From contig PRDI01000123.1 of the NCBI GenBank assembly GCA_003345595.1, positions 1 through 38,718 on the forward strand: DNA of 38,718 nucleotides, in the 5' to 3' direction. The translations under genes were made by a program, and so were the position numbers. The notes below the pieces were generated by a model that saw nothing but the letters and a program-made list of their open reading frames with translations, ran no database searches and was not told where the DNA came from. Within the stretch, counting starts at the first letter, position 1; each line of letters begins with the position of its first letter. Of this stretch, positions 27,791-37,831 are shown piece after piece. The stretch comes from Candidatus Thorarchaeota archaeon. GTDB taxonomy: Archaea > Asgardarchaeota > Thorarchaeia > Thorarchaeales > Thorarchaeaceae.

Positions 27791-28858
27791 GTGCTCACTG
27801 AATTGCCGGAGCTTCCATCCATGTCGTCACGAGAAAGGCTTGAGAAATCACTAGGTATGTTGGGTTTTGCTCATGACCTACGAGCCCTCAGCGTCCTGCG
27901 TGCCGTACTAAACGTACAGTCATCGCTTCAGCGCCCCGTTGATGTGCTTGAGATCTATGACGCCCTCTTGCGGGCGGAACCTGGCGTAGATCTTACTCGA
28001 ACAGGGGTAAGAAAGGTCTTGGAGGCACTTGTCAATATGCGGATGGTGATGGTCGACAGTGATAGAGCACGCAGGAAGAAGTACAGCGCGGACGCAAACA
28101 CCATTGTGACAGGACTGGAGGATCTCAAGCACCAAACTCTGACAAGATTGGAAGCGCGACGAAGATTTCTCCGGGAGGAATTGTCGCTCCTGTCTTCCGT
28201 TGACTTTAGTCACATGGCAGCGAGCCTCACGCGCAGAACAAAGAACAACAAGGAGCAGCCTCGATCGAGGCTTCTGAGGGGACCTGAGGCATATAGAGAA
28301 GCCACTAGGAGCGAGATATTCGGCAAGGCAACGGCTGGAAGCATCATAAGAGTTACCAGACTCTGGCTCGGCCCGTTCATGAGCACAGTCCTAGAGGCGT
28401 TTAACGATTTGCTGAGGGCCGTCGAGAAGGGGGCAGAACTCCAGTTTTGCGTGACTCCCGACATCCTCACACAGAGCGATCTTCTTGCCACCGGTTTGCC
28501 AGAGGATAATCTGATGGAATCTTTTGCCAGAGTGGCGAGATTGAGGAAGGAGGGAGCAAAGATTGACACGAGGATCTGTGGACCTAACGCGAGAACTTAC
28601 CACTTCTCTAGCTTGAATGACGAGAGTATGGTCATCTTGCTCTCTGAGGACCCGCTGGCAGCGACATGGGTGAGTCGCAGCTTCAATCCCGACCTCGTCA
28701 AGAGTGCTATCGCGTCATTCGACCTCATATGGGAACAGTCAGTTTCTCTCTTCGACTCTCCTCAACGCCTGATCGATATGTTCCCCGGGAGTAAGTCGGG
28801 GTATCTCATTTCCACCCTGGTCAGGAGTCGAGAAAGAATGGAAGGTAAGAGGGTGTGA
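27791..28858 (+). CDS. TrmB-like protein 1 (wHTH, coiled coil, PLD-fold-like domain)
   Basis: wHTH (EIYDAL...VRKVLEALVNMRMVMVD..KKYSA), heptad helix, and C-terminal TYH..LN...VILLSE.P..ATW....FNP..V..A...FD..W. Confidence 0.7.
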   Translation: MLTELPELPSMSSRERLEKSLGMLGFAHDLRALSVLRAVLNVQSSLQRPVDVLEIYDALLRAEPGVDLTRTGVRKVLEALVNMRMVMVDSDRARRKKYSADANTIVTGLEDLKHQTLTRLEARRRFLREELSLLSSVDFSHMAASLTRRTKNNKEQPRSRLLRGPEAYREATRSEIFGKATAGSIIRVTRLWLGPFMSTVLEAFNDLLRAVEKGAELQFCVTPDILTQSDLLATGLPEDNLMESFARVARLRKEGAKIDTRICGPNARTYHFSSLNDESMVILLSEDPLAATWVSRSFNPDLVKSAIASFDLIWEQSVSLFDSPQRLIDMFPGSKSGYLISTLVRSRERMEGKRV

Positions 28859-29814
28859 TCTTGGTCGATGAGTCTGTGACCCGTGCTCTGAAGGCTCTAG
28901 GGTTGATTCTGAGAACAGACAGGGACTCTCGCACACTGAAACTGGTCAAGGCCGTGCTGGAAAGACAAAAGGAGCAAGGCGACTCCTTGAGCATCGATGA
29001 AATCCAAGACGAGTTGAGAAGAGAAGAGCCGGGGGCAGTAATCTCTAAGTCGTCCACGGGGAAAGCACTGAGGTCGGCTGTTGAGGTTGGATTTGTAAGG
29101 GCGACAGGACACGGCCCTCAGAGAATACGCTACTCTTCGGACCCTTCGGCTGTAGAAACCGGACTACATAGGACCGCCGAATCTGCCAGGCGAAGAATGC
29201 AGCAGGAAACTCGTGTTATCTCCTCTGAGTCGGATGCCGTCGCGAGCTTGGACTGTGCAGCTCTGGCACAGGACCTCGTGCTGGAGTTCACGGGCAGCAA
29301 ACAGAGAACAAGCTCCCGACTGGTGACTGGTGCAGAAGACATCCGGAGAGCAGTCGCATACAACATGAAGGACATGGCACGCGAAGGGAGTGTCATCAGG
29401 GTCACAGCCATGTCACCATCTCCGTTCATCAATCAAAACGGAGAGGTGGTTCTAGAGATTGCACACGCAGTGCTGAGGGGCGCTAACGTCCGATGTCTCG
29501 TAACCTCCAAGATTGTCGAGAGCCTGTTTCAGTCTAGCGGACCGACGGACAGTCGCGGAGATGCGTTCGGTTCCCCGGAAGCCCCTAGCGTAGCAATCAG
29601 AATCTACGACGGACCCATGACGTACCATCACGTAACACTGAACAATGAGTGCATGGCGCTGATCGTGTCAGAGAAGCCACTGACGGCGGCATGGATAACC
29701 AGACAGTTCAATCCCGATATCATTGATGCATCAGTCCTGAGCTTCGATGAATTGTGGACAGGGGCTAGGTCGATGGACGTGTCCCGCCCAGAGGAGGCAT
29801 CGGGTAACCCGTGA
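28855..29814 (+). CDS. TrmB-like protein 2
   Basis: Same architecture (TYHHVTLNNECMALIVSEKPLTAAWITRQFNPDII...FDELW). GTGA overlap with the previous gene. Confidence 0.7.
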   Translation: MILVDESVTRALKALGLILRTDRDSRTLKLVKAVLERQKEQGDSLSIDEIQDELRREEPGAVISKSSTGKALRSAVEVGFVRATGHGPQRIRYSSDPSAVETGLHRTAESARRRMQQETRVISSESDAVASLDCAALAQDLVLEFTGSKQRTSSRLVTGAEDIRRAVAYNMKDMAREGSVIRVTAMSPSPFINQNGEVVLEIAHAVLRGANVRCLVTSKIVESLFQSSGPTDSRGDAFGSPEAPSVAIRIYDGPMTYHHVTLNNECMALIVSEKPLTAAWITRQFNPDIIDASVLSFDELWTGARSMDVSRPEEASGNP

Positions 29815-30863
29815 CAGTCCGTGATTCACCCCTTCCTCGAAAACCACACGGAAGGAGTAACCCCGACAAGGAGGAACGGGCTAGGTCGGACCTCAAGACC
29901 AAGGAAATGCTAGATGCCCTCAGACTAATCGGCTACGATATCAACACAGTCGATAGACGATTCGAAGTCCTCAGAATCATCCTCCGGAACCAGCATGAAC
30001 AGGGGGTTTCAGTTCCATTCAAGGACATAGAGAGTCAGTTACAGGCAGAAGCCAATCACAAGAGTATCGTTCGGCCTCAAATATACCGATGGCTAGCATC
30101 TCTTGAGAAGGATGGATGCTTGACTGTCGACAGGTTCTCCAAGCCCCACCGCTACTCTGTCACTGCCGAAACCTTGGCAGCAGCTCTTGGCGAAGCTAGA
30201 ACAAGAGCGCTGACGTCGCTCGAACGGGATAAGATGAGGCTCTTTTCAGACATCCAGAGGCTATATGCCGCCCACGACATGGACAACCAAGAGTCTGAAG
30301 CTCCAGACTTCTCTCGTCTTGCCGGCGATGCAATTGAACTGATCACCGGAGTCCTCCAGAGGACTGCGGCCAGGTTCGCTGAAGGGATGGAACAGATAAC
30401 CAGACTGATTGATGGCGAGATATACTCGACAGTCAGAAAGGGGGACGTGCTACGACTCTCGACGAGCCAGAGGGGTATCGACTTGGCAAGCGCAGAACAG
30501 CATGCGAAAGCTGTGAGCAGGCTTGCTAGAAAGGGGGCCATCCTGAGAGTGTTGCTGAGTAGGGACTTCGACACGAACGACACGATTGGTCGCGTGATTG
30601 TTGACACCTACAAATCACTGATTCATGACAGACTCGATGTTTCACTAAGGAAACGTACACGTGCTGGGGAAACGTACCAGATGGTTGCAAGAAACAGTGA
30701 CAGAGTCGTACTCATGATATCAGATCAGCCATTCGCAGCCACCTTCATCCCGAGAATCATCAATCAGGAACTAGTGAACGATGCCATTGCGAGCTTCGAT
30801 GCGGAATTCGCGATAGCTAACGATGCCGCGGCCGAAACATCCGACTGGAGGACCAAATCATGA
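29811..30863 (+). CDS. TrmB-like protein 3
   Basis: wHTH IYRWLASLEKDGCLTVD...RYSV; C-terminal TYQMVARNSDRVVLMISDQPFAATFI...FD. GTGA overlap. Confidence 0.7.
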   Translation: MTVRDSPLPRKPHGRSNPDKEERARSDLKTKEMLDALRLIGYDINTVDRRFEVLRIILRNQHEQGVSVPFKDIESQLQAEANHKSIVRPQIYRWLASLEKDGCLTVDRFSKPHRYSVTAETLAAALGEARTRALTSLERDKMRLFSDIQRLYAAHDMDNQESEAPDFSRLAGDAIELITGVLQRTAARFAEGMEQITRLIDGEIYSTVRKGDVLRLSTSQRGIDLASAEQHAKAVSRLARKGAILRVLLSRDFDTNDTIGRVIVDTYKSLIHDRLDVSLRKRTRAGETYQMVARNSDRVVLMISDQPFAATFIPRIINQELVNDAIASFDAEFAIANDAAAETSDWRTKS

Positions 30864-31819
30864 GCAAAGCTGCTGCAGCTCTCGATTTGATTGGCATTCA
30901 CCTCGATTCCAGCGAGATGAAGGTTCTTCGATACTTGTTCAAAGCTTCACGAGGGCCACAGAGAGTGACTTTCAGTGCCGTCTATGACCAAATCAAGAAG
31001 ACAAAGGCTGTGCCTCCAACCAAAGTCTGGGTATATGAATGCCTGAGAAAGTTGGAAACAGCCGGCTTCATATCTGTCGACAAGTTGTCACGGCCCAGTT
31101 CCTACGTTGTCAGCAACGAGACAATCGCGAATGGTCTGGAGCGCGCTTGGAGAAACAGATTGGATTCGATAGAGAGTGAAATCGAACTACTGACTCGGGC
31201 AACTGCAGAGGACTTGGCCGCCTTCTTGTATAAGTCCGCAACTGGTAGCCCAACGCAACAGAACACGAACCTAGCCAGAGGAGTCGAGAATGTCAGAAGG
31301 CTCATCAGATCCGAGCTGCTAGACAGGAAACAGTGGAAAGCGGGTGACGAACTTAAGCTCATTCACAGACTAGACAACCTAATTGGCGCGAAGGGTACTA
31401 GTGGTCCTGTAGACAAGGAGATAGTTGCAGCTGCCATGGACGGCCTCAATGTGCGCGTAGTGTTCATAGCGTCAGATATCCCAATTAACGGTCTTGGCGT
31501 TGTTGCTACATTCATGCGCGACGAAGTCAGTCAGCTTGCGAGTTTGCTGAGCAGTGGGCGTCTACAGTTCAGACTGTATCCTGAAGATATAGCGACATAC
31601 AGAATCGTCGCCCTAAACAGAAGTAAACTTGTCATGCTACTGACCAATGCATTCAGGCCCGACACAGCTGTACTACTAGACCGGACTGAGCAACCGATTG
31701 TGGTTGAGCATGCGATGCAGAGGTTTGACACACTCTGGGACCAGTCGATTGACGCCAGAGCACTCATGGCGACCCTGTTTGCCAAGTCAGTAGATCCCAA
31801 TCCAGACACTACTGCCTAG
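30860..31819 (+). CDS. TrmB-like protein 4
   Basis: TrmB-like start (LDSSEMKVLRYL), wHTH VYECLRKLETAGFISVD..RPSSYVV, and C-terminal TYRIVALNRSKLVMLL...FDTLWDQS. ATGA overlap. Confidence 0.72.
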   Translation: MSKAAAALDLIGIHLDSSEMKVLRYLFKASRGPQRVTFSAVYDQIKKTKAVPPTKVWVYECLRKLETAGFISVDKLSRPSSYVVSNETIANGLERAWRNRLDSIESEIELLTRATAEDLAAFLYKSATGSPTQQNTNLARGVENVRRLIRSELLDRKQWKAGDELKLIHRLDNLIGAKGTSGPVDKEIVAAAMDGLNVRVVFIASDIPINGLGVVATFMRDEVSQLASLLSSGRLQFRLYPEDIATYRIVALNRSKLVMLLTNAFRPDTAVLLDRTEQPIVVEHAMQRFDTLWDQSIDARALMATLFAKSVDPNPDTTA

Positions 31820-32910: not shown

Positions 32911-33026
32911 TGCGCGTCATCTTCGGCATGACATCTGTCTTTTGACACTTTTCCCAGTATTCAACACTAGTCCTTTCGAAAGTGTTTTCTCTTCACTCAG
33001 GTCCCTTCGCAGAAGAGCTGGACCAC

Positions 33027-34898
33027 ATGGTGAAATCTCAACATTCTCTGATGAGCGGTAATGAGGCGATGTCAAGAGGAGCGATAGAAGCAGGCGTTAG
33101 GTTTTGTGCCTCGTATCCGGGAACGCCTTCCACTGAGATAACAGAGAGCCTCATGCGAAGCGCTTCTGACAGAGGAATCTATGTTGAGTGGAGCACCAAT
33201 GAGAAGGTGGCTCTCGAGGCAGCTTCTGCGGCCAGCTGGGTTGGAGTCTCTGCTCTCTGCCCCATGAAGTCACTCGGTTTGAACGTTGCGGCAGACTTCC
33301 TGCTAAACCTCAACCTGTCTGGCAGTGGAAAGGGGGGCTTGGTGATCGTGGTCTGCGATGACCCGGAAGGTCACAGCTCAAGCAACGAGCAGGACTCGAG
33401 GTTCTACGCGAAAGCAGCCATGCTGCCATTGCTGGAGCCCTCCACCGGCCAAGAGGCAAAGGAGGCGATTCTCTATGCCTTCGATCTTTCCAGAAGGCAC
33501 GAAGTGCCTGTGATTGTGCGAAGCACAACGAGGCTGAGTCACTCTAGCAGTCTGGTGAATGTTGGACCATTGCCACAGGTAGCGCCGGCGACTCTGTCCT
33601 CTTTTCCCAGGGGCCTCTTCAATGTGCCTCAGCCGGCCGTGAAGCACAGAGAGCTGCTGAGCAAGATACAGCTCATAGCGGCTGAGTTCGAGAAGTCGAG
33701 CTTGAACAAGCTCAACCTAGGCCCTGACGCCAAGACCCTCTTGATATCCTCAGGCATCTGCCAGAGCTACTCCGAGGAGGCGCTGGCACTTGTCCACACC
33801 AAGAATACAGGAAGTCTAGGGCTTGTGACAACAAATCCAATTCCCACAGGACTGATTGCGAATGCCATGGCGGGAGTAGAGAGGGTGCTCTTTGTAGAGG
33901 AAACAGACCCATTCCTGGAGGATGAGATACGTTCCCAATATGTGGGCCTCTCGACGCCCGACCGGCCCCGGTTCTATGGCAAACGCACGAAAACCCTCCC
34001 GGCCTGGGGTGAAATGAGTGTGGATCATGTTGTGAAAGGTCTGTCACAGGTCACTGATCTTTCGCACGAAATGTCACTCCACGGAGGTCTAGATGCCCGC
34101 GCCAGAGGGGCCAAGCTGCTCATCTCGAGGCCTCTAACATTCTGTGCAGGATGTACTCACAGGAACGTGTACTGGGCACTGCGCCAAGAAAAGAAGAGAA
34201 GAGGCGGCCAGCTTGTCGTCGCTGGAGACATTGGCTGCTATTCGCTGGGAGTCTTCTATGACGAAACCATGAACACAATGCAGGCCATGGGCTCCGGTAT
34301 CGGTGTCGCGTGCGGACTCGGACAACTCGGTAGGTTTGGCTTCGAGTCTGCAGTCGTTGCTGTGGCAGGGGACTCAACATTTTTCCATGCCTGCTTGCCA
34401 GCTCTCGTGAATGCTCGACACAAGAATGCGAATCTTACTTTCCTGATACTTGACAATGAGACTACTGCAATGACCGGATTTCAGCCCCATCCTGGTTCTG
34501 CCGTACAAGACAAGGGCCAACGGCGCATCAGCATTCCTGATCTGGTTCGGGCAATCGGTCCGGATTACATGACAACGAGTGACTCCGTCGAGATAGGTCC
34601 ACTTATCGAACTCATTCATACCACTGTCGCAAAAGATGGACTAAGGGTCCTCATCCTGAAGGGCATATGTCGACTGGAGCAACAGCGCCGTGGTGTTTCC
34701 CACGAGGGTCTAGGCAAAGTGAGCGTGAATCCGGCTCTCTGTCGTGGTGAGAAGTGCAAGATATGCTTTAGTCAGTTCGGTTGCACTGCTATTGGCTGGC
34801 TCCCTACTGAGAAACAAGCGACAATCCTTGACGAGGTATGTGTTCGCTGCGGCTCATGCATAGGAGTGTGTCCCTACAAGGCCATTCGCCAGGAGTGA
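33027..34898 (+). CDS. iorA: Indolepyruvate:ferredoxin oxidoreductase alpha subunit
   Basis: SGNEA..RGA.EAG, SYPGTPSTEI, NEKVALE, MKSLGLNVAAD, SSSNEQDSR, FCAGCTHR, GDIGCY, TPP motif GDSTFFH...LDN.TTAMTG and a C-terminal ferredoxin. Start placed at ATG 33027. Confidence 0.95.
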   Translation: MVKSQHSLMSGNEAMSRGAIEAGVRFCASYPGTPSTEITESLMRSASDRGIYVEWSTNEKVALEAASAASWVGVSALCPMKSLGLNVAADFLLNLNLSGSGKGGLVIVVCDDPEGHSSSNEQDSRFYAKAAMLPLLEPSTGQEAKEAILYAFDLSRRHEVPVIVRSTTRLSHSSSLVNVGPLPQVAPATLSSFPRGLFNVPQPAVKHRELLSKIQLIAAEFEKSSLNKLNLGPDAKTLLISSGICQSYSEEALALVHTKNTGSLGLVTTNPIPTGLIANAMAGVERVLFVEETDPFLEDEIRSQYVGLSTPDRPRFYGKRTKTLPAWGEMSVDHVVKGLSQVTDLSHEMSLHGGLDARARGAKLLISRPLTFCAGCTHRNVYWALRQEKKRRGGQLVVAGDIGCYSLGVFYDETMNTMQAMGSGIGVACGLGQLGRFGFESAVVAVAGDSTFFHACLPALVNARHKNANLTFLILDNETTAMTGFQPHPGSAVQDKGQRRISIPDLVRAIGPDYMTTSDSVEIGPLIELIHTTVAKDGLRVLILKGICRLEQQRRGVSHEGLGKVSVNPALCRGEKCKICFSQFGCTAIGWLPTEKQATILDEVCVRCGSCIGVCPYKAIRQE

Positions 34899-35500
34899 TT
34901 TATTTGGATAGACTGTACAATGTGCTCATTGCAGGCGTAGGAGGACAGGGGAATTTACTGTGCGGAAGAGTCCTAGCAGAGGCCGCCATCTTGAAGGGAT
35001 ACAGGCCCACAATCGGTGAAACCTTTGGAGCATCACGCAGAGGAGGGACAGTGGTCACACATGTGCGCATAGGAGACCACGACTTAGGCCCCCTCATTCC
35101 TCGTGGTACGGTCGATATGTTGATTGGTCTTGAGCCAATGGAAGCACTTCGTGCGGCAGTGGACTACTGTGGAGAGCGCGCCATCGCAGTTGTGAGTACT
35201 GCCGAAGTGCAAACAATGCAGTGCATAACGGGAACGACGAAATACCCACCGTTGGCAGACATACTTGATGTCATGTCATCAATCTGTGCTAGCGTTTCCC
35301 CTATCGATCCTGTTTTAGCCCTTGGTGAGACCGAGTACAGACGCGTTTTGAACTCGTTTATGTTGGGAGCGGCACTCACCATTGGCATAGCACCTCTCAC
35401 GGCAAATGGCGTCAGAGAATCGCTGACCGGGCTCATGCAACCTGTGGGTCCCAACGTGGCTGCGTTCGATGCGGGGCTCAAAACCTCTGTCAGAGTGTGA
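34895..35500 (+). CDS. iorB: Indolepyruvate:ferredoxin oxidoreductase beta subunit
   Basis: IAGVGGQG, GETFGASRRGGTVVTHVRIG, LEPMEALR and NSFMLGA. Start is GTG 34895 (overlapping the iorA stop) or TTG 34904. Confidence 0.92.
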   Translation: MIYLDRLYNVLIAGVGGQGNLLCGRVLAEAAILKGYRPTIGETFGASRRGGTVVTHVRIGDHDLGPLIPRGTVDMLIGLEPMEALRAAVDYCGERAIAVVSTAEVQTMQCITGTTKYPPLADILDVMSSICASVSPIDPVLALGETEYRRVLNSFMLGAALTIGIAPLTANGVRESLTGLMQPVGPNVAAFDAGLKTSVRV

Positions 35501-35521: not shown

Positions 35522-37831
35522 CTAGACGCCATGCTTCTTGGTGTCAGAGGTCTTCTTTGCCTCGTTCCACATGAGCTCGGCGAGAATCGTGAACATGTCC
35601 GCCACACCCTCGCCTGTCTTTGCACTGCTTTCCATGTAGACGAAACCTTGTGACTCGGCCCATTGCCTAGCCTCTTCGCTGCTGACCGCCCTGTCGGGCA
35701 AGTCTATCTTGTTGCCCACGCAGACCATGGGTACCCTGCCACCTACTGACTCATCGGACTCCTCAACCCACTTGACGAGCTCACTGAACGAACGCCGACG
35801 AGTGACATCGAACACCAGTATGACTCCTGCGGCTCCACTGTAGTACATCTTGCGTACTGCTTTGAAACGAGCTTGGCCTGCAACATCCCACGCCTGTATC
35901 TTGATGCCAGTAGCGTATTGAGACTCTGGTGGCGAGATGTGAGTGAGCTTGACTGCGAACTGCGATCCTATCGTGGTCTTGTAGTCCTTCTCGAATTGTC
36001 CAGTCGTAAATCTGTTGACTAGAGCCGTCTTGCCTACTGCACCCTCTCCTATCACCATGGTCTTGAACAGATAGCTGTACGAGTCAGAGGGTGTACCGGG
36101 CTTCAAGGGCTTGGGTTTTCGTGCACGAATCTCGGCTACAATGGTGCTCTCGGCCGACACAACTGCCCGTGCAGGGACTTCCACTGCAGCCTCCTCTTCC
36201 TCAGGAAGCTCGGCCAGTGCGGCAACATCCATACTAGTCACTTCGGTAGTTTCGCTGAAGAGCCTGTCAAGCAGTTTCTCTGCCTCACGCAATGAGGCCG
36301 CTGTGCTCTCTGTCATCTCTGGTTCTTCATCGACTGATGTGGTTGTTTCTTCTGCTGAAACCCTGCCAAAGCCAGTGCCAACAGTTTCTCCAAAAAGTGT
36401 GCCTGTATCCTCCTCAAGAGTCTCGGTTTCTTTCTGCGGGGTAAGCACAACAGGTGCCACGGCTGATGCTGCTGCCGTCACGGATCCCTTCTCGACCATC
36501 ACCGCGGTTTCGGGAGTGGTTACCTGCCGCACCCGGCCGTCCGAGTCTGTCCACATGAGTACTATGGGTCTGACAATTATCGAACCCTCGGCCTTTGGCA
36601 TTAGCTGAAGCTCAACAGTCTTTGTTTCAAAGGGTCCTAGATCGAAGCGTACCTGTTGCGGCGTGACATCCATGTCTGCCTTGGGAAACCAGTAGACCTT
36701 CCCACTAACACCACTGACGGATTTATCTGTCACGTTGGTCAGCGTGACACGGCCCCTCAACCCAGCACCGGTTTCTGCCTGAGGACTCACTTCAAACTTG
36801 GGTATAACAGTATACAAACCCTGGATGACCCTGAGTGGACCATTTGATATGCCGACGAGAACCTCCTTCCTTCCGTCGCCTCCTACGTCACCTGCACTGA
36901 TAGCGAGTATCTTGGTCCCAATTTCCACCTTTGCCACCTGTTGCAGCTCAGCTGCCTGGATACTGTAGAAGACAACATTAGCGTCGGATGTGGCGACCAC
37001 TGCCTCATCCATGTGATCGGCATTCAGCTCCTCAATCCTCAGAGAGAGAGCTTTGACCTTATCCAACATCGTGAATAGCTCGAGCCGACTCTCTTCGTTG
37101 CGGTATACCCTTATTGATCCGTCGTAGGTCACGACGCCTAGTTCCATCTTGCGGTCTCCGAGCAAATCACCGGAGGCGACAGAAACTACAGGGCTAGGTA
37201 GGTCGAGTACCTCCATCTGCTCAATTGTATGATCTTTGACTTTGAAGACTCTGACCGTCTTGTCTCTGTTGCCCGTGACGATTTCATCTATCTCATCACC
37301 ATCGACATCGCATGTCCCTATCGTTATGGGCATGTCATCGAGCCGATAGCGGGCATACTCTGACAGGTTGTTCAGAGTGTCCATCTCAAATACCCTGAGA
37401 GTTGAGTCGCTGCCGCCTACCATGATCTCATTCTTGTCGTCACCAGTTACATCGGTGACTCTGACAGTTGTCACGAATCGGTCGACAGGGTGTTCTGCCA
37501 ATAGCTCGAGACTGCCGCTGGATGAGAACCTGTAGACCTGTAGGGTACCAGCAATTCCCGCCACATCTCGAGGACCTATGCTCCGACCGACCACTATTTC
37601 GTTCTGTCCATCGTTGTTGGCGTCGGCGATCTCTATAGATAGAATGCTGCCTTCGATGTCAAGTTGAGCTAAGAACTGAATCTCGCTCTTGTTAGCATCA
37701 TAGACGCGTAGCACTCCGTCACGTCCACCTGTACAGAGCTCGGACTTTCCCGTGCCTACGACATCACCTACGGCGATTGCACTGGTGCTCTTGTCTTCCT
37801 TTATCTCGAAGAGAACTCTTGGTGAATCCAA
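35522..37831 (-). CDS. Multidomain protein: 7-blade FG-GAP-like beta-propeller, Ig/GAE-like beta-sandwich, acidic linker, Rab-like small GTPase
   Basis: Seven D-x-x-G-D-x-x-x-E-(I/L)-x-x-G-x-x-D-x-x-(L/V)RV-type repeats and a beta-sandwich (VTLTN...LGPFETKTVELQL.P..EG). The GTPase has G1 GEGAVGKT, G2 TTIG, G3 WDVAGQ, G4 NKID and G5 SAK. Confidence 0.88.
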   Translation of the reverse strand: MDSPRVLFEIKEDKSTSAIAVGDVVGTGKSELCTGGRDGVLRVYDANKSEIQFLAQLDIEGSILSIEIADANNDGQNEIVVGRSIGPRDVAGIAGTLQVYRFSSSGSLELLAEHPVDRFVTTVRVTDVTGDDKNEIMVGGSDSTLRVFEMDTLNNLSEYARYRLDDMPITIGTCDVDGDEIDEIVTGNRDKTVRVFKVKDHTIEQMEVLDLPSPVVSVASGDLLGDRKMELGVVTYDGSIRVYRNEESRLELFTMLDKVKALSLRIEELNADHMDEAVVATSDANVVFYSIQAAELQQVAKVEIGTKILAISAGDVGGDGRKEVLVGISNGPLRVIQGLYTVIPKFEVSPQAETGAGLRGRVTLTNVTDKSVSGVSGKVYWFPKADMDVTPQQVRFDLGPFETKTVELQLMPKAEGSIIVRPIVLMWTDSDGRVRQVTTPETAVMVEKGSVTAAASAVAPVVLTPQKETETLEEDTGTLFGETVGTGFGRVSAEETTTSVDEEPEMTESTAASLREAEKLLDRLFSETTEVTSMDVAALAELPEEEEAAVEVPARAVVSAESTIVAEIRARKPKPLKPGTPSDSYSYLFKTMVIGEGAVGKTALVNRFTTGQFEKDYKTTIGSQFAVKLTHISPPESQYATGIKIQAWDVAGQARFKAVRKMYYSGAAGVILVFDVTRRRSFSELVKWVEESDESVGGRVPMVCVGNKIDLPDRAVSSEEARQWAESQGFVYMESSAKTGEGVADMFTILAELMWNEAKKTSDTKKHGV

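What the first reader, a model, noticed from the sequence alone, without database searches (positions are those of the whole stretch)
35522..37831. Propeller-Ig/GAE-like-Rab fusion resembling a BBSome/KICSTOR-type subunit joined to its own GTPase
Seen in the sequence: seven blades (GDVVGTGKSE, ADANNDGQNE, TDVTGDDKNE, CDVDGDEIDE, GDLLGDRKME, EELNADHMDE, GDVGGDGRKE; about 36820-37831), a roughly 105-aa beta-sandwich (about 36490-36810), an Ala/Glu/Thr-rich linker, and a complete GTPase (about 35522-36079). The GTPase carries Rab-family-like motifs IGSQF, KIQAW, RFKAV, YYSGA and LVFDVT. There is no signal peptide, TM helix or C-terminal Cys, so it looks cytoplasmic and unprenylated. Established: cytoplasmic propellers with DxDGDG-type blades occur in BBS2/BBS7 and ITFG2/kaptin; BBS2/7/9 also carry a GAE domain downstream of the propeller; these complexes act with small GTPases. 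Inference: an archaeal one-chain version of a coat/tether-plus-GTPase module, possibly Ca2+-sensitive through the blade loops.
Basis: partly seen in the sequence, partly recalled or inferred. Interest (0 to 1): 0.9.

Follow-up and report, generated by a model that had tools for sequence, protein, structure and literature searches.

The report
Thorarchaeal propeller-tethered Rab-like GTPase
This is a real, single-copy core gene of Thorarchaeia (Asgard archaea) that ties a Rab-type GTP switch by a long acidic leash to a cytoplasmic seven-bladed propeller and an Ig-like domain; its closest solved look-alikes are the eukaryotic BBSome and KICSTOR propellers, but shared ancestry with them is not shown.

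Summary
Window 35522-37831 (-) is one 769-aa ORF. It has a seven-bladed FG-GAP-type propeller (1-340), an Ig-like sandwich (341-455), an acidic disordered linker (456-577) and a complete Rab-like G domain (578-755). There is no signal peptide, TM helix or C-terminal Cys.

The fusion is not a misassembly. It occurs in 78 of 87 species genomes of the class, in 23 of 24 high-quality ones and in all 17 genera, always single-copy and in conserved synteny.

BBS2, BBS9, BBS7, ITFG2 and BBS1 top Foldseek, and ITFG2 is the best PDB profile hit. The margin is small, though: generic WD40 propellers score within 2-3 Z. The matches are at blade level, and archaeal propellers without a G domain pass the same Pfam BBS models.

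The sandwich is a generic Ig fold; GAE, MG, ASH and CARDB are not separated. The G domain forms its own clade, a paralogue of the 182-aa Thor-Rab.

The most likely role is a nucleotide-gated cytoplasmic scaffold. I found no paper describing this architecture. The scan has met orthologues of this gene before in other genomes and reached the same verdict.

The parts
36812..37831 (-). Seven-bladed FG-GAP-type beta-propeller (residues 1-340). Each blade carries a D-x-x-G-D-x-x-x-E loop followed by a WD40-like G-x-x-D-x-x-L-R-V-F strand.
   Evidence: AF2 model with pLDDT 88.9 and 28 strands in seven blades. Pfam FG-GAP_3 72.9 bits, BBS2_Mid 60.9, Beta-prop_BBS7 59.6, Itfg2 42. VIA: BBS2 Z 35.6, rmsd 2.2 over 296 residues; ITFG2 Z 34.6. 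The blade loops are invariant in a blade-specific way.
37598..37624 (-). Blade-2 loop DANNDGQNE (residues 70-78), the only canonical DxNxDGxxE calcium-type loop kept by the whole family.
   Evidence: D, A, N, N, D, G and E are invariant in 26 of 26 homologues. Calcium binding itself was not tested.
36467..36811 (-). Ig-like beta-sandwich (residues 341-455).
   Evidence: Domain model with pLDDT 82. Foldseek: TRAP luminal domain 3e-5, BBS9 GAE 1.4e-4. VIA wide: BBS1 GAE and a lacto-N-biosidase Ig domain both Z 11.1, C3/C4 MG 10.6-10.7, alpha-adaptin ear 9.2, CARDB 8.3. Sub-threshold Pfam ASH in 21 of 24 members.
36101..36466 (-). Acidic disordered linker (residues 456-577): 109-137 aa long, net charge -11 to -22, 35% identity across the family.
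   Evidence: pLDDT below 50 from residue 456. Composition, length and charge; alignment.
36254..36295 (-). Conserved helix-like island in the linker, SLREAEKLLDRLFS (residues 513-526; family consensus SLKAAExLLDQLFG).
   Evidence: A517, E518, L520, L521 and F525 are invariant in 26 homologues.
36107..36151 (-). Second conserved island just before the G domain, ES..V.EIR.R.PKP (residues 561-575).
   Evidence: E561, S562, I568 and R571 are invariant.
35567..36100 (-). Rab-like small GTPase domain (residues 578-755) with intact G1-G5 and a catalytic Gln in DVAGQ.
   Evidence: Pfam Ras E 2.5e-46. Best solved relative is Thor-Rab 7ezb at E 3.3e-44, then Rab14, Rab30, Rab2A and Rab11A. Mean identity across the family is 82%. 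The fused G domains form a monophyletic clade, 99/97.
35522..35566 (-). Short basic C-terminal tail (residues 756-769, KK-containing, no Cys) plus the stop codon.
   Evidence: No Cys in the last 10 residues of any of 26 homologues; the tail ends in a conserved KK patch.

Best explanation
The gene encodes a cytoplasmic multidomain small GTPase that is specific to Thorarchaeia and a core gene of that class. Its N-terminal part is a protein-interaction platform made of an FG-GAP-type seven-bladed propeller plus an Ig-like sandwich. This platform is joined by a flexible acidic leash of about 120 residues, carrying two conserved short motifs, to a catalytically complete Rab-like G domain.

Shown:
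- the architecture;
- its conservation under purifying selection in every domain;
- a single origin of the fused G domain, as a paralogue of the stand-alone 182-aa Thor-Rab group;
- a cytoplasmic location;
- no operon partner.

Inferred:
- The G domain cycles between GTP and GDP and so changes what the platform and the linker motifs can bind.
- It could do this by docking on the platform in cis, or by releasing the linker motifs.
- The protein would then act as a nucleotide-gated adaptor or scaffold.
- Because the leash holds the switch at high local concentration near the platform, the platform or linker probably also acts as the switch's effector or regulator.

The BBS2/ITFG2 likeness places the propeller in the same structural subclass as those eukaryotic scaffolds. 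It does not establish descent.
For: - One intact ORF with confident domain models.
- The same length and Pfam architecture in more than 120 protein clusters and about 70 species genomes titled Thorarchaeota.
- Present in 78 of 87 class genomes, 23 of 24 high-quality ones and 17 of 17 genera, single copy.
- Identity by domain: G domain 82%, propeller 69%, sandwich 62%, linker 35%. Linker length and negative charge are kept, and two motif islands are invariant.
- G1-G5 are intact. The closest solved protein is Thor-Rab, which has measured GTPase activity comparable to human Rab11B (PMC10933270).
- The fused G domains form one clade (99/97), separate from the 182-aa stand-alone clade that includes this genome's own C109 copy.
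- No signal peptide, TM helix or Cys.
- The gene is always its own transcription unit, divergent from an ABC ATPase and convergent with IOR genes.
- In the one contig where the gene is broken, the break lies in the linker and both halves stay adjacent.
Against: - No direct evidence exists for any binding event, any partner or any nucleotide-dependent change.
- The neighbourhood is metabolic and gives no functional hint.
- The family has Thr where Thor-Rab has its switch-I Arg37, so its hydrolysis mechanism may differ from the only characterised relative.
- A scaffold role is a generic inference from domain types.
Confidence: 0.6

Rival explanations
1. One reading: the propeller-sandwich module is a true homologue, an archaeal relative or forerunner, of the BBS2/7/9/1 propeller-GAE or ITFG2 scaffolds. 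Fused to its own GTPase, it would be a one-chain version of a coat or tether with its ARL6- or Rag-like switch.
For: - BBS2, BBS9, BBS7, ITFG2 and BBS1 fill the Foldseek top ranks (1.7e-19 to 4e-13), ahead of integrin alpha at about 1e-12.
- ITFG2 (1e-8) and BBS7 (3.7e-4) are the best natural PDB hits by sequence profile. The first ITFG2 segment is colinear at the N-terminus, and integrins are absent.
- BBS2 has the top VIA Z (35.6) and the highest identity, 18%.
- The BBS1 and BBS9 GAE domains are among the best sandwich matches.
- The propeller-then-sandwich order matches BBS1 and BBS9.
- Canonical bacterial FG-GAP proteins (P0179, P0259, P0200, P0215, P0131) do not hit the BBS models at 1e-6, so the likeness belongs to a subclass and not to the whole superfamily.
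- A 2026 preprint lists one Asgard-eukaryote-exclusive structural cluster labelled BBS7/ITFG2 (10.64898/2026.10.28.762692).
Against: - WD40 propellers of unrelated function score within 2-3 Z.
- The Pfam BBS matches are fragmentary and blade-shifted, not colinear.
- Prokaryotic propellers with no GTPase pass the same cut-offs, and they are much closer by sequence: 80-165 bits against 37 bits.
- The sandwich is not separable from MG, transglutaminase-C, ASH or CARDB folds.
- The platform and helical domains of BBS2/7/9 are missing.
- The family is confined to one Asgard class that is not the proposed sister of eukaryotes.
- Repeat proteins converge easily.
Confidence: 0.17
2. The propeller is the G domain's own regulator. 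It would be a cis-acting exchange factor or GTPase activator, as the RCC1 propeller is for Ran and the Sec12 propeller is for Sar1. On this reading the protein is a self-cycling switch whose output goes through the linker motifs.
For: - The family lacks the intrinsic switch-I Arg that the Thor-Rab paper highlights: Thr in 26 of 26 (PMC10933270). Help with hydrolysis is therefore plausible.
- An invariant Arg (R571) lies in the conserved island just before the G domain.
- Covalent tethering gives a high local concentration.
- The examples of propellers acting as GEFs come from established knowledge of RCC1 and Sec12; they were not tested here.
Against: - There is no sequence or fold affinity to RCC1 or Sec12 in particular. 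Neither appears among the listed matches.
- A permanently tethered unregulated GEF or GAP would make the switch futile unless it were itself gated.
Confidence: 0.15
3. The protein is an extracellular or surface FG-GAP/VCBS-type adhesin or enzyme module, or an assembly chimera of two unrelated genes.
For: - Many FG-GAP proteins are secreted. Some distant hits carry dockerin or PGA_cap domains, and one near hit has a signal peptide (P0212).
Against: - No signal peptide or TM helix in 26 homologues.
- A GTPase needs cytoplasmic GTP.
- Most of the nearest single-propeller relatives also lack signal peptides.
- The identical fusion occurs in 78 genomes from independent assemblies, including closed chromosomes.
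Confidence: 0.01

Closest known systems
Thor-Rab (PDB 7EZB/7EZD/7EZE; Tran et al. 2024, PMC10933270) and the 182-aa stand-alone 'Rab family GTPases' of Thorarchaeota
   Same: - Best solved match to the G domain: E 3.3e-44, about 50% identity.
- The stand-alone group is 51-58% identical.
- Same RabF-like motifs.
- Same lack of a C-terminal prenylation Cys and the same short tail.
   Different: - The fused G domains form a separate, well-supported clade (99/97).
- They sit at the end of a 769-aa protein.
- They have Thr where Thor-Rab has Arg37.
BBSome subunits BBS2, BBS7, BBS9 and BBS1 (PDB 6VBU, 6VOA, 6XT9)
   Same: - Top Foldseek and VIA matches of the propeller.
- A propeller followed by an Ig-type (GAE) sandwich.
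- Cytoplasmic.
- The BBS1 propeller is the docking site of a small GTPase (ARL6), as the entry titles of 6VOA and 4V0N show.
   Different: - 12-18% identity, and only blade-level sequence matches.
- No coiled coil, platform or helical C-terminal domains.
- The GTPase is covalently attached and is Rab-like, not Arf-like.
- No sign of the other BBSome subunits was sought or found.
ITFG2 of the KICSTOR complex (PDB 9V6E, 9O5A)
   Same: - Best natural PDB hit by sequence profile: 1e-8, with a colinear first segment.
- Z 34.6 over 323 residues.
- A single cytoplasmic FG-GAP-type seven-bladed propeller.
   Different: - ITFG2 has no sandwich, linker or G domain.
- 15-16% identity.
- Only 37 bits in total, built from three short segments.
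Cytoplasmic single-propeller FG-GAP-like proteins of archaea (for example P0156 from Helarchaeales, P0149, P0136, and this genome's own 355-aa C114 protein)
   Same: - The nearest non-orthologous sequences: 79-94 bits, 26-31% identity.
- The same hybrid blade motif.
- Most lack a signal peptide.
- They pass the same Pfam BBS models.
   Different: - They have no sandwich, linker or G domain.
- The matches are blade-shifted, not colinear.
Other multidomain Asgard small GTPases (longin- or roadblock-fused Rag/Arf-like; Liu et al. preprint 10.1101/2020.10.19.343400; PMC10933270)
   Same: - The same general phenomenon: lineage-restricted fusions of a small GTPase to a trafficking-type domain, produced by domain shuffling.
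   Different: - Those fusions use longin or roadblock domains.
- I found no propeller-Ig-Rab architecture in the papers I could search.

Membership tests
Ras-superfamily small GTPase (Pfam PF00071) | Pfam Ras model above its gathering score, with G1-G5 nucleotide-binding motifs | tested here: met
   157.6 bits against a cut-off of 21.6. GEGAVGKT, TTIG, DVAGQ, NKxD and SAK are invariant in 26 homologues.
Rab family in the eukaryotic sense | RabF1-F5 motifs | tested here: met
   IGSQF, KIQAW, RFKAV, YYSGA and LVFDVT align with the Rab14 and Thor-Rab motifs and are conserved. These are near-matches, not identical to the eukaryotic consensus.
Rab family in the eukaryotic sense | C-terminal Cys for geranylgeranylation and a hypervariable tail | tested here: not met
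   No Cys in the last 10 residues of any of 26 homologues. The tail is 14 residues and basic.
Rab family in the eukaryotic sense | Placement inside the eukaryotic Rab clade in a phylogeny that includes Ran, Ras, Rho, RabL and the IFT22/27 proteins | not testable with these tools
   No eukaryotic sequences could be fetched. There are only PDB E-value ranks: Thor-Rab, then Rab14, Rab30, Rab2A and Rab11A.
Stand-alone Thor-Rab group (182 aa) | Membership of the same clade, and the intrinsic switch-I Arg37 | tested here: not met
   It forms a separate clade, 99/97 for the fused group. The equivalent residue is Thr in 26 of 26.
FG-GAP / integrin-alpha-type beta-propeller | FG-GAP repeat models above cut-off and a seven-bladed fold | tested here: met
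   FG-GAP_3 72.9 bits (cut-off 26.9) and FG-GAP 25.3 (cut-off 22.1). Seven blades in the AF2 model.
FG-GAP / integrin-alpha-type beta-propeller | Several DxDxDGxxD calcium-binding loops | tested here: inconclusive
   Only blade 2 keeps a full DxNxDGxxE loop. The other blades have a hydrophobic or small residue at position 3. Metal binding was not measured.
BBSome subunits BBS2/BBS7/BBS9 | Propeller closest to BBS propellers in fold and sequence, and specifically so | tested here: inconclusive
   The BBS proteins rank first and pass the Pfam cut-offs. However, WD40 propellers are within 2-3 Z, the matches are fragmentary, and GTPase-less prokaryotic propellers pass the same models.
BBSome subunits BBS2/BBS7/BBS9 | GAE domain after the propeller | tested here: inconclusive
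   BBS1 GAE Z 11.1 and BBS9 GAE E 1.4e-4, but these tie with unrelated Ig domains. Pfam GAE_BBS1 matches 1 of 24 members at E 0.18.
BBSome subunits BBS2/BBS7/BBS9 | Platform and alpha-helical C-terminal domains | tested here: not met
   After the sandwich come a disordered acidic linker and a G domain.
KICSTOR ITFG2 | Colinear match to the Itfg2 model or chain over the whole propeller | tested here: inconclusive
   Pfam Itfg2 scores 42 bits (cut-off 27) in two stretches shifted by one blade. The PDB profile hit is 37.5 bits in three short segments, the first of them colinear.
CARDB / DUF11-type prokaryotic Ig domain | Fold or profile match that stands above other Ig classes | tested here: inconclusive
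   CARDB 3idu Z 8.3. Pfam CARDB matches 1 of 24 members and BatD 5 of 24, all sub-threshold.
ASH (MSP/PapD-like cytoplasmic Ig) domain | Pfam ASH above its gathering score | tested here: inconclusive
   21 of 24 members match, but below the cut-off: the best E is 4.6e-5, and P0001 scores 15.1 bits against a cut-off of 27. CEP192 ASH Z 8.8.
Roco proteins | Roc domain followed by a COR domain | tested here: not met
   The Roc model matches (105.8 bits) as expected for any Ras-like domain. The protein ends 14 residues after the G domain, and no COR hit appears.
Known anti-phage defence systems (PADLOC) | Any PADLOC model hit | tested here: not met
   No family at E <= 0.01.

The most novel reading that the evidence does not exclude
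The protein would be a GTP-gated, self-assembling proto-coat or tether. In the GTP state the leashed Rab-like domain of one molecule docks on the propeller of another, as ARL6-GTP docks on the BBS1 propeller, and the linker motifs engage the Ig-like domain. The propeller-sandwich module would be a surviving archaeal relative of the ancestor of the BBS1/2/7/9 and ITFG2 scaffolds. That would put a switch-plus-scaffold trafficking unit in Asgard archaea before eukaryotes.
Probability: 0.1. Interest if true: 0.9.

Novelty: new variant of a known kind. Interest (0 to 1): 0.58.

Why it matters
Small GTPases and propeller-based scaffolds are the two building blocks of eukaryotic membrane traffic, and how the two became coupled is an open question in eukaryogenesis. 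Here a whole Asgard class keeps, as a single-copy core gene, a covalent pairing of a Rab-like switch with a propeller and Ig module. The closest solved look-alikes of that module are the BBSome and KICSTOR scaffolds, both of which work with small GTPases.

Even if the likeness is only one of structural class, the protein is a tractable one-chain system. It could show how a Rab-type switch talks to a propeller platform without prenylation, GDI or separate effectors. Its relative Thor-Rab has already been purified and crystallised. If the likeness reflects descent, it would add a new family to the Asgard inventory of eukaryotic signature proteins.

Tried and rejected
- Complex prediction: N-terminal module (1-460) against linker helix plus G domain (505-769), with GTP and Mg. 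It returned no verdict (score 0.00 in both runs, controls not run). It counts neither for nor against docking.
- Operon partners: none. The flanks are an ABC transporter (NMT1-type binding protein, permease, ATPase), IOR alpha and beta, and a DHH protein. They are conserved by general synteny only.
- Analogous propeller-Ras fusions in other lineages: ten 716-796-aa hits from the exhaustive search were scanned, and none has a G domain.
- Unfused orthologues: the apparent G-less homologues are contig-end partials, or in one case (P0118) a gene broken in the linker with the G half immediately downstream.
- Sandwich by sequence profile against PDB: nothing below E 0.25.
- Defence-system models: no hit.
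- Literature: searches for Asgard with BBSome, ITFG2 or FG-GAP, and for Thorarchaeota with small GTPase and propeller, found no description of this architecture. The Kostlbacher 2026 main text has no BBS, ITFG2 or propeller words, and its supplements are not held.
- Four tandem paralogues next to the locus were checked for a GTPase signature, because the divergent lineage has an Arf-like gene at that position. None was found.
- A G-domain tree with eukaryotic Rab, Ran and RabL sequences could not be built, because no eukaryotic sequences were obtainable.
Full report
**What is there.** Window 35522-37831 on the minus strand is a single 769-aa ORF. The TTG start has a GGAAGG element about 10 nt upstream and coincides with the ATG of homologues. 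The stop lies 21 nt from the convergent IOR beta gene. Pfam finds a Ras-family domain at residues 590-753 (E 2.5e-46). In the first 340 residues it finds FG-GAP_3 (72.9 bits), BBS2_Mid (60.9), Beta-prop_BBS7 (59.6), Itfg2 (42.0) and PHTB1_N (31.5), all above their cut-offs. An AlphaFold2 model of residues 1-470, built on 24 homologues, is confident (pLDDT 88.9, pTM 0.85). It shows seven four-stranded blades and then a beta-sandwich at 342-455, with disorder from residue 456. None of 26 homologues has a signal peptide, a TM helix or a C-terminal Cys.

**Is the fusion real?** Yes.
- More than 120 protein clusters of about 765-785 aa share the architecture at 62-96% identity.
- Within the class it occurs in 78 of 87 species genomes, in 23 of 24 high-quality ones and in all 17 genera, as a single copy. 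A member of the second family of the order carries a form that is 46% identical.
- An exhaustive search of 1.8 billion representatives found only three family clusters. One is a 40%-identical full-length form (P0122). Scores then drop sharply to non-orthologous propellers.
- Synteny is stable: ABC ATPase (divergent), the fusion, IOR beta and alpha (convergent), then DHH. The gene is always its own transcription unit.
- The only G-less homologue not at a contig end is a gene broken in the linker, with the G half directly downstream.

**Conservation.** Mean identity to this protein is 82% in the G domain, 69% in the propeller, 62% in the sandwich and 35% in the linker. The linker nevertheless keeps its length (109-137 aa) and its net charge (-11 to -22). 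It also contains two invariant islands: SLKAAExLLDQLFG at 513-526 and ES..V.EIR.R.PKP at 561-575. Each blade loop is invariant in a blade-specific way.

**The G domain.**
- G1-G5 and the catalytic Gln are intact.
- The best solved relative is Thor-Rab (7ezb, E 3.3e-44), followed by Rab14, Rab30, Rab2A and Rab11A.
- Thor-Rab has measured GTPase activity similar to human Rab11B and also lacks prenylation Cys residues (PMC10933270).
- The genome holds at least 16 small-GTPase paralogues, the closest being a 188-aa stand-alone ORF at 54% identity.
- In the protein database, fragments of the fusion family (70-85% identity) are followed by a uniform group of 182-aa stand-alone Thorarchaeal Rab-family GTPases (51-58%).
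- In a maximum-likelihood tree the fused G domains, including the distant P0122, form one clade (99/97). It is separate from the stand-alone clade, which contains this genome's own copy. The branching among these clades and the other paralogues is unresolved. The fusion therefore arose once.
- The family has Thr where Thor-Rab has the switch-I Arg37 that its authors discuss as a possible intrinsic arginine finger.

**The propeller and the BBSome/KICSTOR question.**
- Foldseek ranks BBS2 (1.7e-19), BBS9, BBS7, ITFG2 and BBS1 above integrin alpha headpieces, which score about 1e-12.
- A sequence profile of the family finds ITFG2 (1e-8), BBS7 (3.7e-4) and BBS2 (8e-3) as its best natural PDB hits, and it finds no integrins.
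- Rigid-body alignment puts BBS2 (Z 35.6, rmsd 2.2 over 296 residues, 18% identity) and ITFG2 (Z 34.6) first.

Four controls weaken the inference of specific kinship.
- Unrelated WD40 propellers (Ciao1, LGI1, RACK1, COPI) reach Z 32-33.7.
- The Pfam and PDB matches are short and mostly shifted by a blade. Only the first ITFG2 segment is colinear.
- Prokaryotic propellers with no GTPase pass the same BBS2_Mid, BBS7, Itfg2 and BBS1 cut-offs.
- By sequence the nearest non-orthologues are metagenomic and archaeal propellers at 79-165 bits, against 37 bits for ITFG2.

Two further points refine the picture. Canonical bacterial FG-GAP repeat proteins do not hit the BBS models at 1e-6, so the likeness belongs to a subclass and not to the whole superfamily. 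That subclass has a WD40-like G-x-x-D-x-x-L-R-V-F strand after each FG-GAP loop. Also, the nearest single-propeller relatives mostly lack signal peptides, and one is from Helarchaeales.

**The sandwich.** Folded alone (pLDDT 82), it is a generic Ig-like sandwich.
- Foldseek gives the TRAP luminal domain (3e-5), then BBS9 GAE (1.4e-4), complement MG domains and MSP/VAP domains.
- The Foldseek-independent search ties BBS1 GAE with a bacterial glycosidase Ig domain at Z 11.1. C3/C4 MG domains follow at 10.6-10.7, the alpha-adaptin ear at 9.2, GGA2 GAE at 8.7 and CARDB at 8.3.
- No Pfam family passes its cut-off. ASH is the most recurrent sub-threshold match, in 21 of 24 members.
- The PDB profile search finds nothing.

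Neither GAE nor CARDB can be affirmed or excluded.

**Mechanism.** What is shown is a cytoplasmic platform joined to a competent Rab-like switch by a flexible, charged, motif-bearing leash, with every part under purifying selection and no operon partner. I infer a nucleotide-gated scaffold: the state of the G domain controls what the platform and the linker motifs can bind. Whether the propeller is effector, regulator or both is open. One complex prediction gave no verdict and is not used as evidence.

**Literature and earlier notes.** I found no paper that describes this architecture. The general pattern of lineage-restricted multidomain Asgard ESPs is known. A 2026 preprint lists one Asgard-eukaryote structural cluster labelled BBS7/ITFG2 that matches an ESP catalogue. 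I could not tell whether that cluster contains this protein. The scan has met orthologues of this gene in several other genomes, and earlier follow-ups reached the same verdict. I re-derived that verdict here independently.

**Verdict.** This is a real, conserved and apparently undescribed variant of the Asgard multidomain small GTPases. Its evolutionary reading is possible but unproven.

Noticed in passing
window 27791-31819 (+): Four tandem paralogous ORFs (355, 319, 350 and 319 aa) with overlapping stops and starts, so probably one operon. They have no Pfam family, only faint TrmB/wHTH-like hints at E 0.03-0.09. Homologues lie at the same position next to the DHH gene in 43 related loci.
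   Followed up: partly
L002:1150-2217 (+), own genome contig C114: A stand-alone 355-aa cytoplasmic propeller without a signal peptide. Its top Pfam hit is Beta-prop_BBS7 (43 bits), while FG-GAP_3 falls just below its cut-off. P0198 is an orthologue from another source. It is a second BBS/ITFG2-like propeller in the same genome, this one with no G domain.
   Followed up: partly
own genome, loci L081-L096: At least 16 small-GTPase paralogues in a 2.7 Mb genome that is 83% complete. Three of them lie inside long ORFs (489, 526 and 656 aa on contigs C23, C43 and C102), which may be further multidomain GTPases.
   Followed up: no
L100:3001-5374: In one JGI metagenome contig the orthologue is split in the linker into two overlapping co-oriented ORFs: 455 aa (propeller plus sandwich) and 346 aa (linker plus G domain). 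It is either a frameshift error or a rare natural split. The break falls exactly at the domain boundary.
   Followed up: partly
L097:8480-13144: In the divergent lineage (P0270, 40% identical) the fusion gene is followed by ribosomal protein S17e, the DHH gene, a 319-aa protein with an Arf-family domain in its C-terminal half, and a 772-aa protein with no Pfam family.
   Followed up: no
protein P0143 (796 aa, metagenomic): A cytoplasmic BBS7/FG-GAP-like propeller followed by a long Pro/Ala-rich linker and four repeats of a DUF5817_CT-like winged-helix module. The layout is the same, a propeller, a long linker and a C-terminal module, but the output domain differs.
   Followed up: no
window 32982-35500 (+): A 2-oxoacid:ferredoxin oxidoreductase pair of the indolepyruvate type (638 aa with POR_N and TPP_enzyme_C; 220 aa with POR). 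The two genes overlap by 61 nt, and the pair ends 21 nt from the stop of the fusion gene.
   Followed up: no
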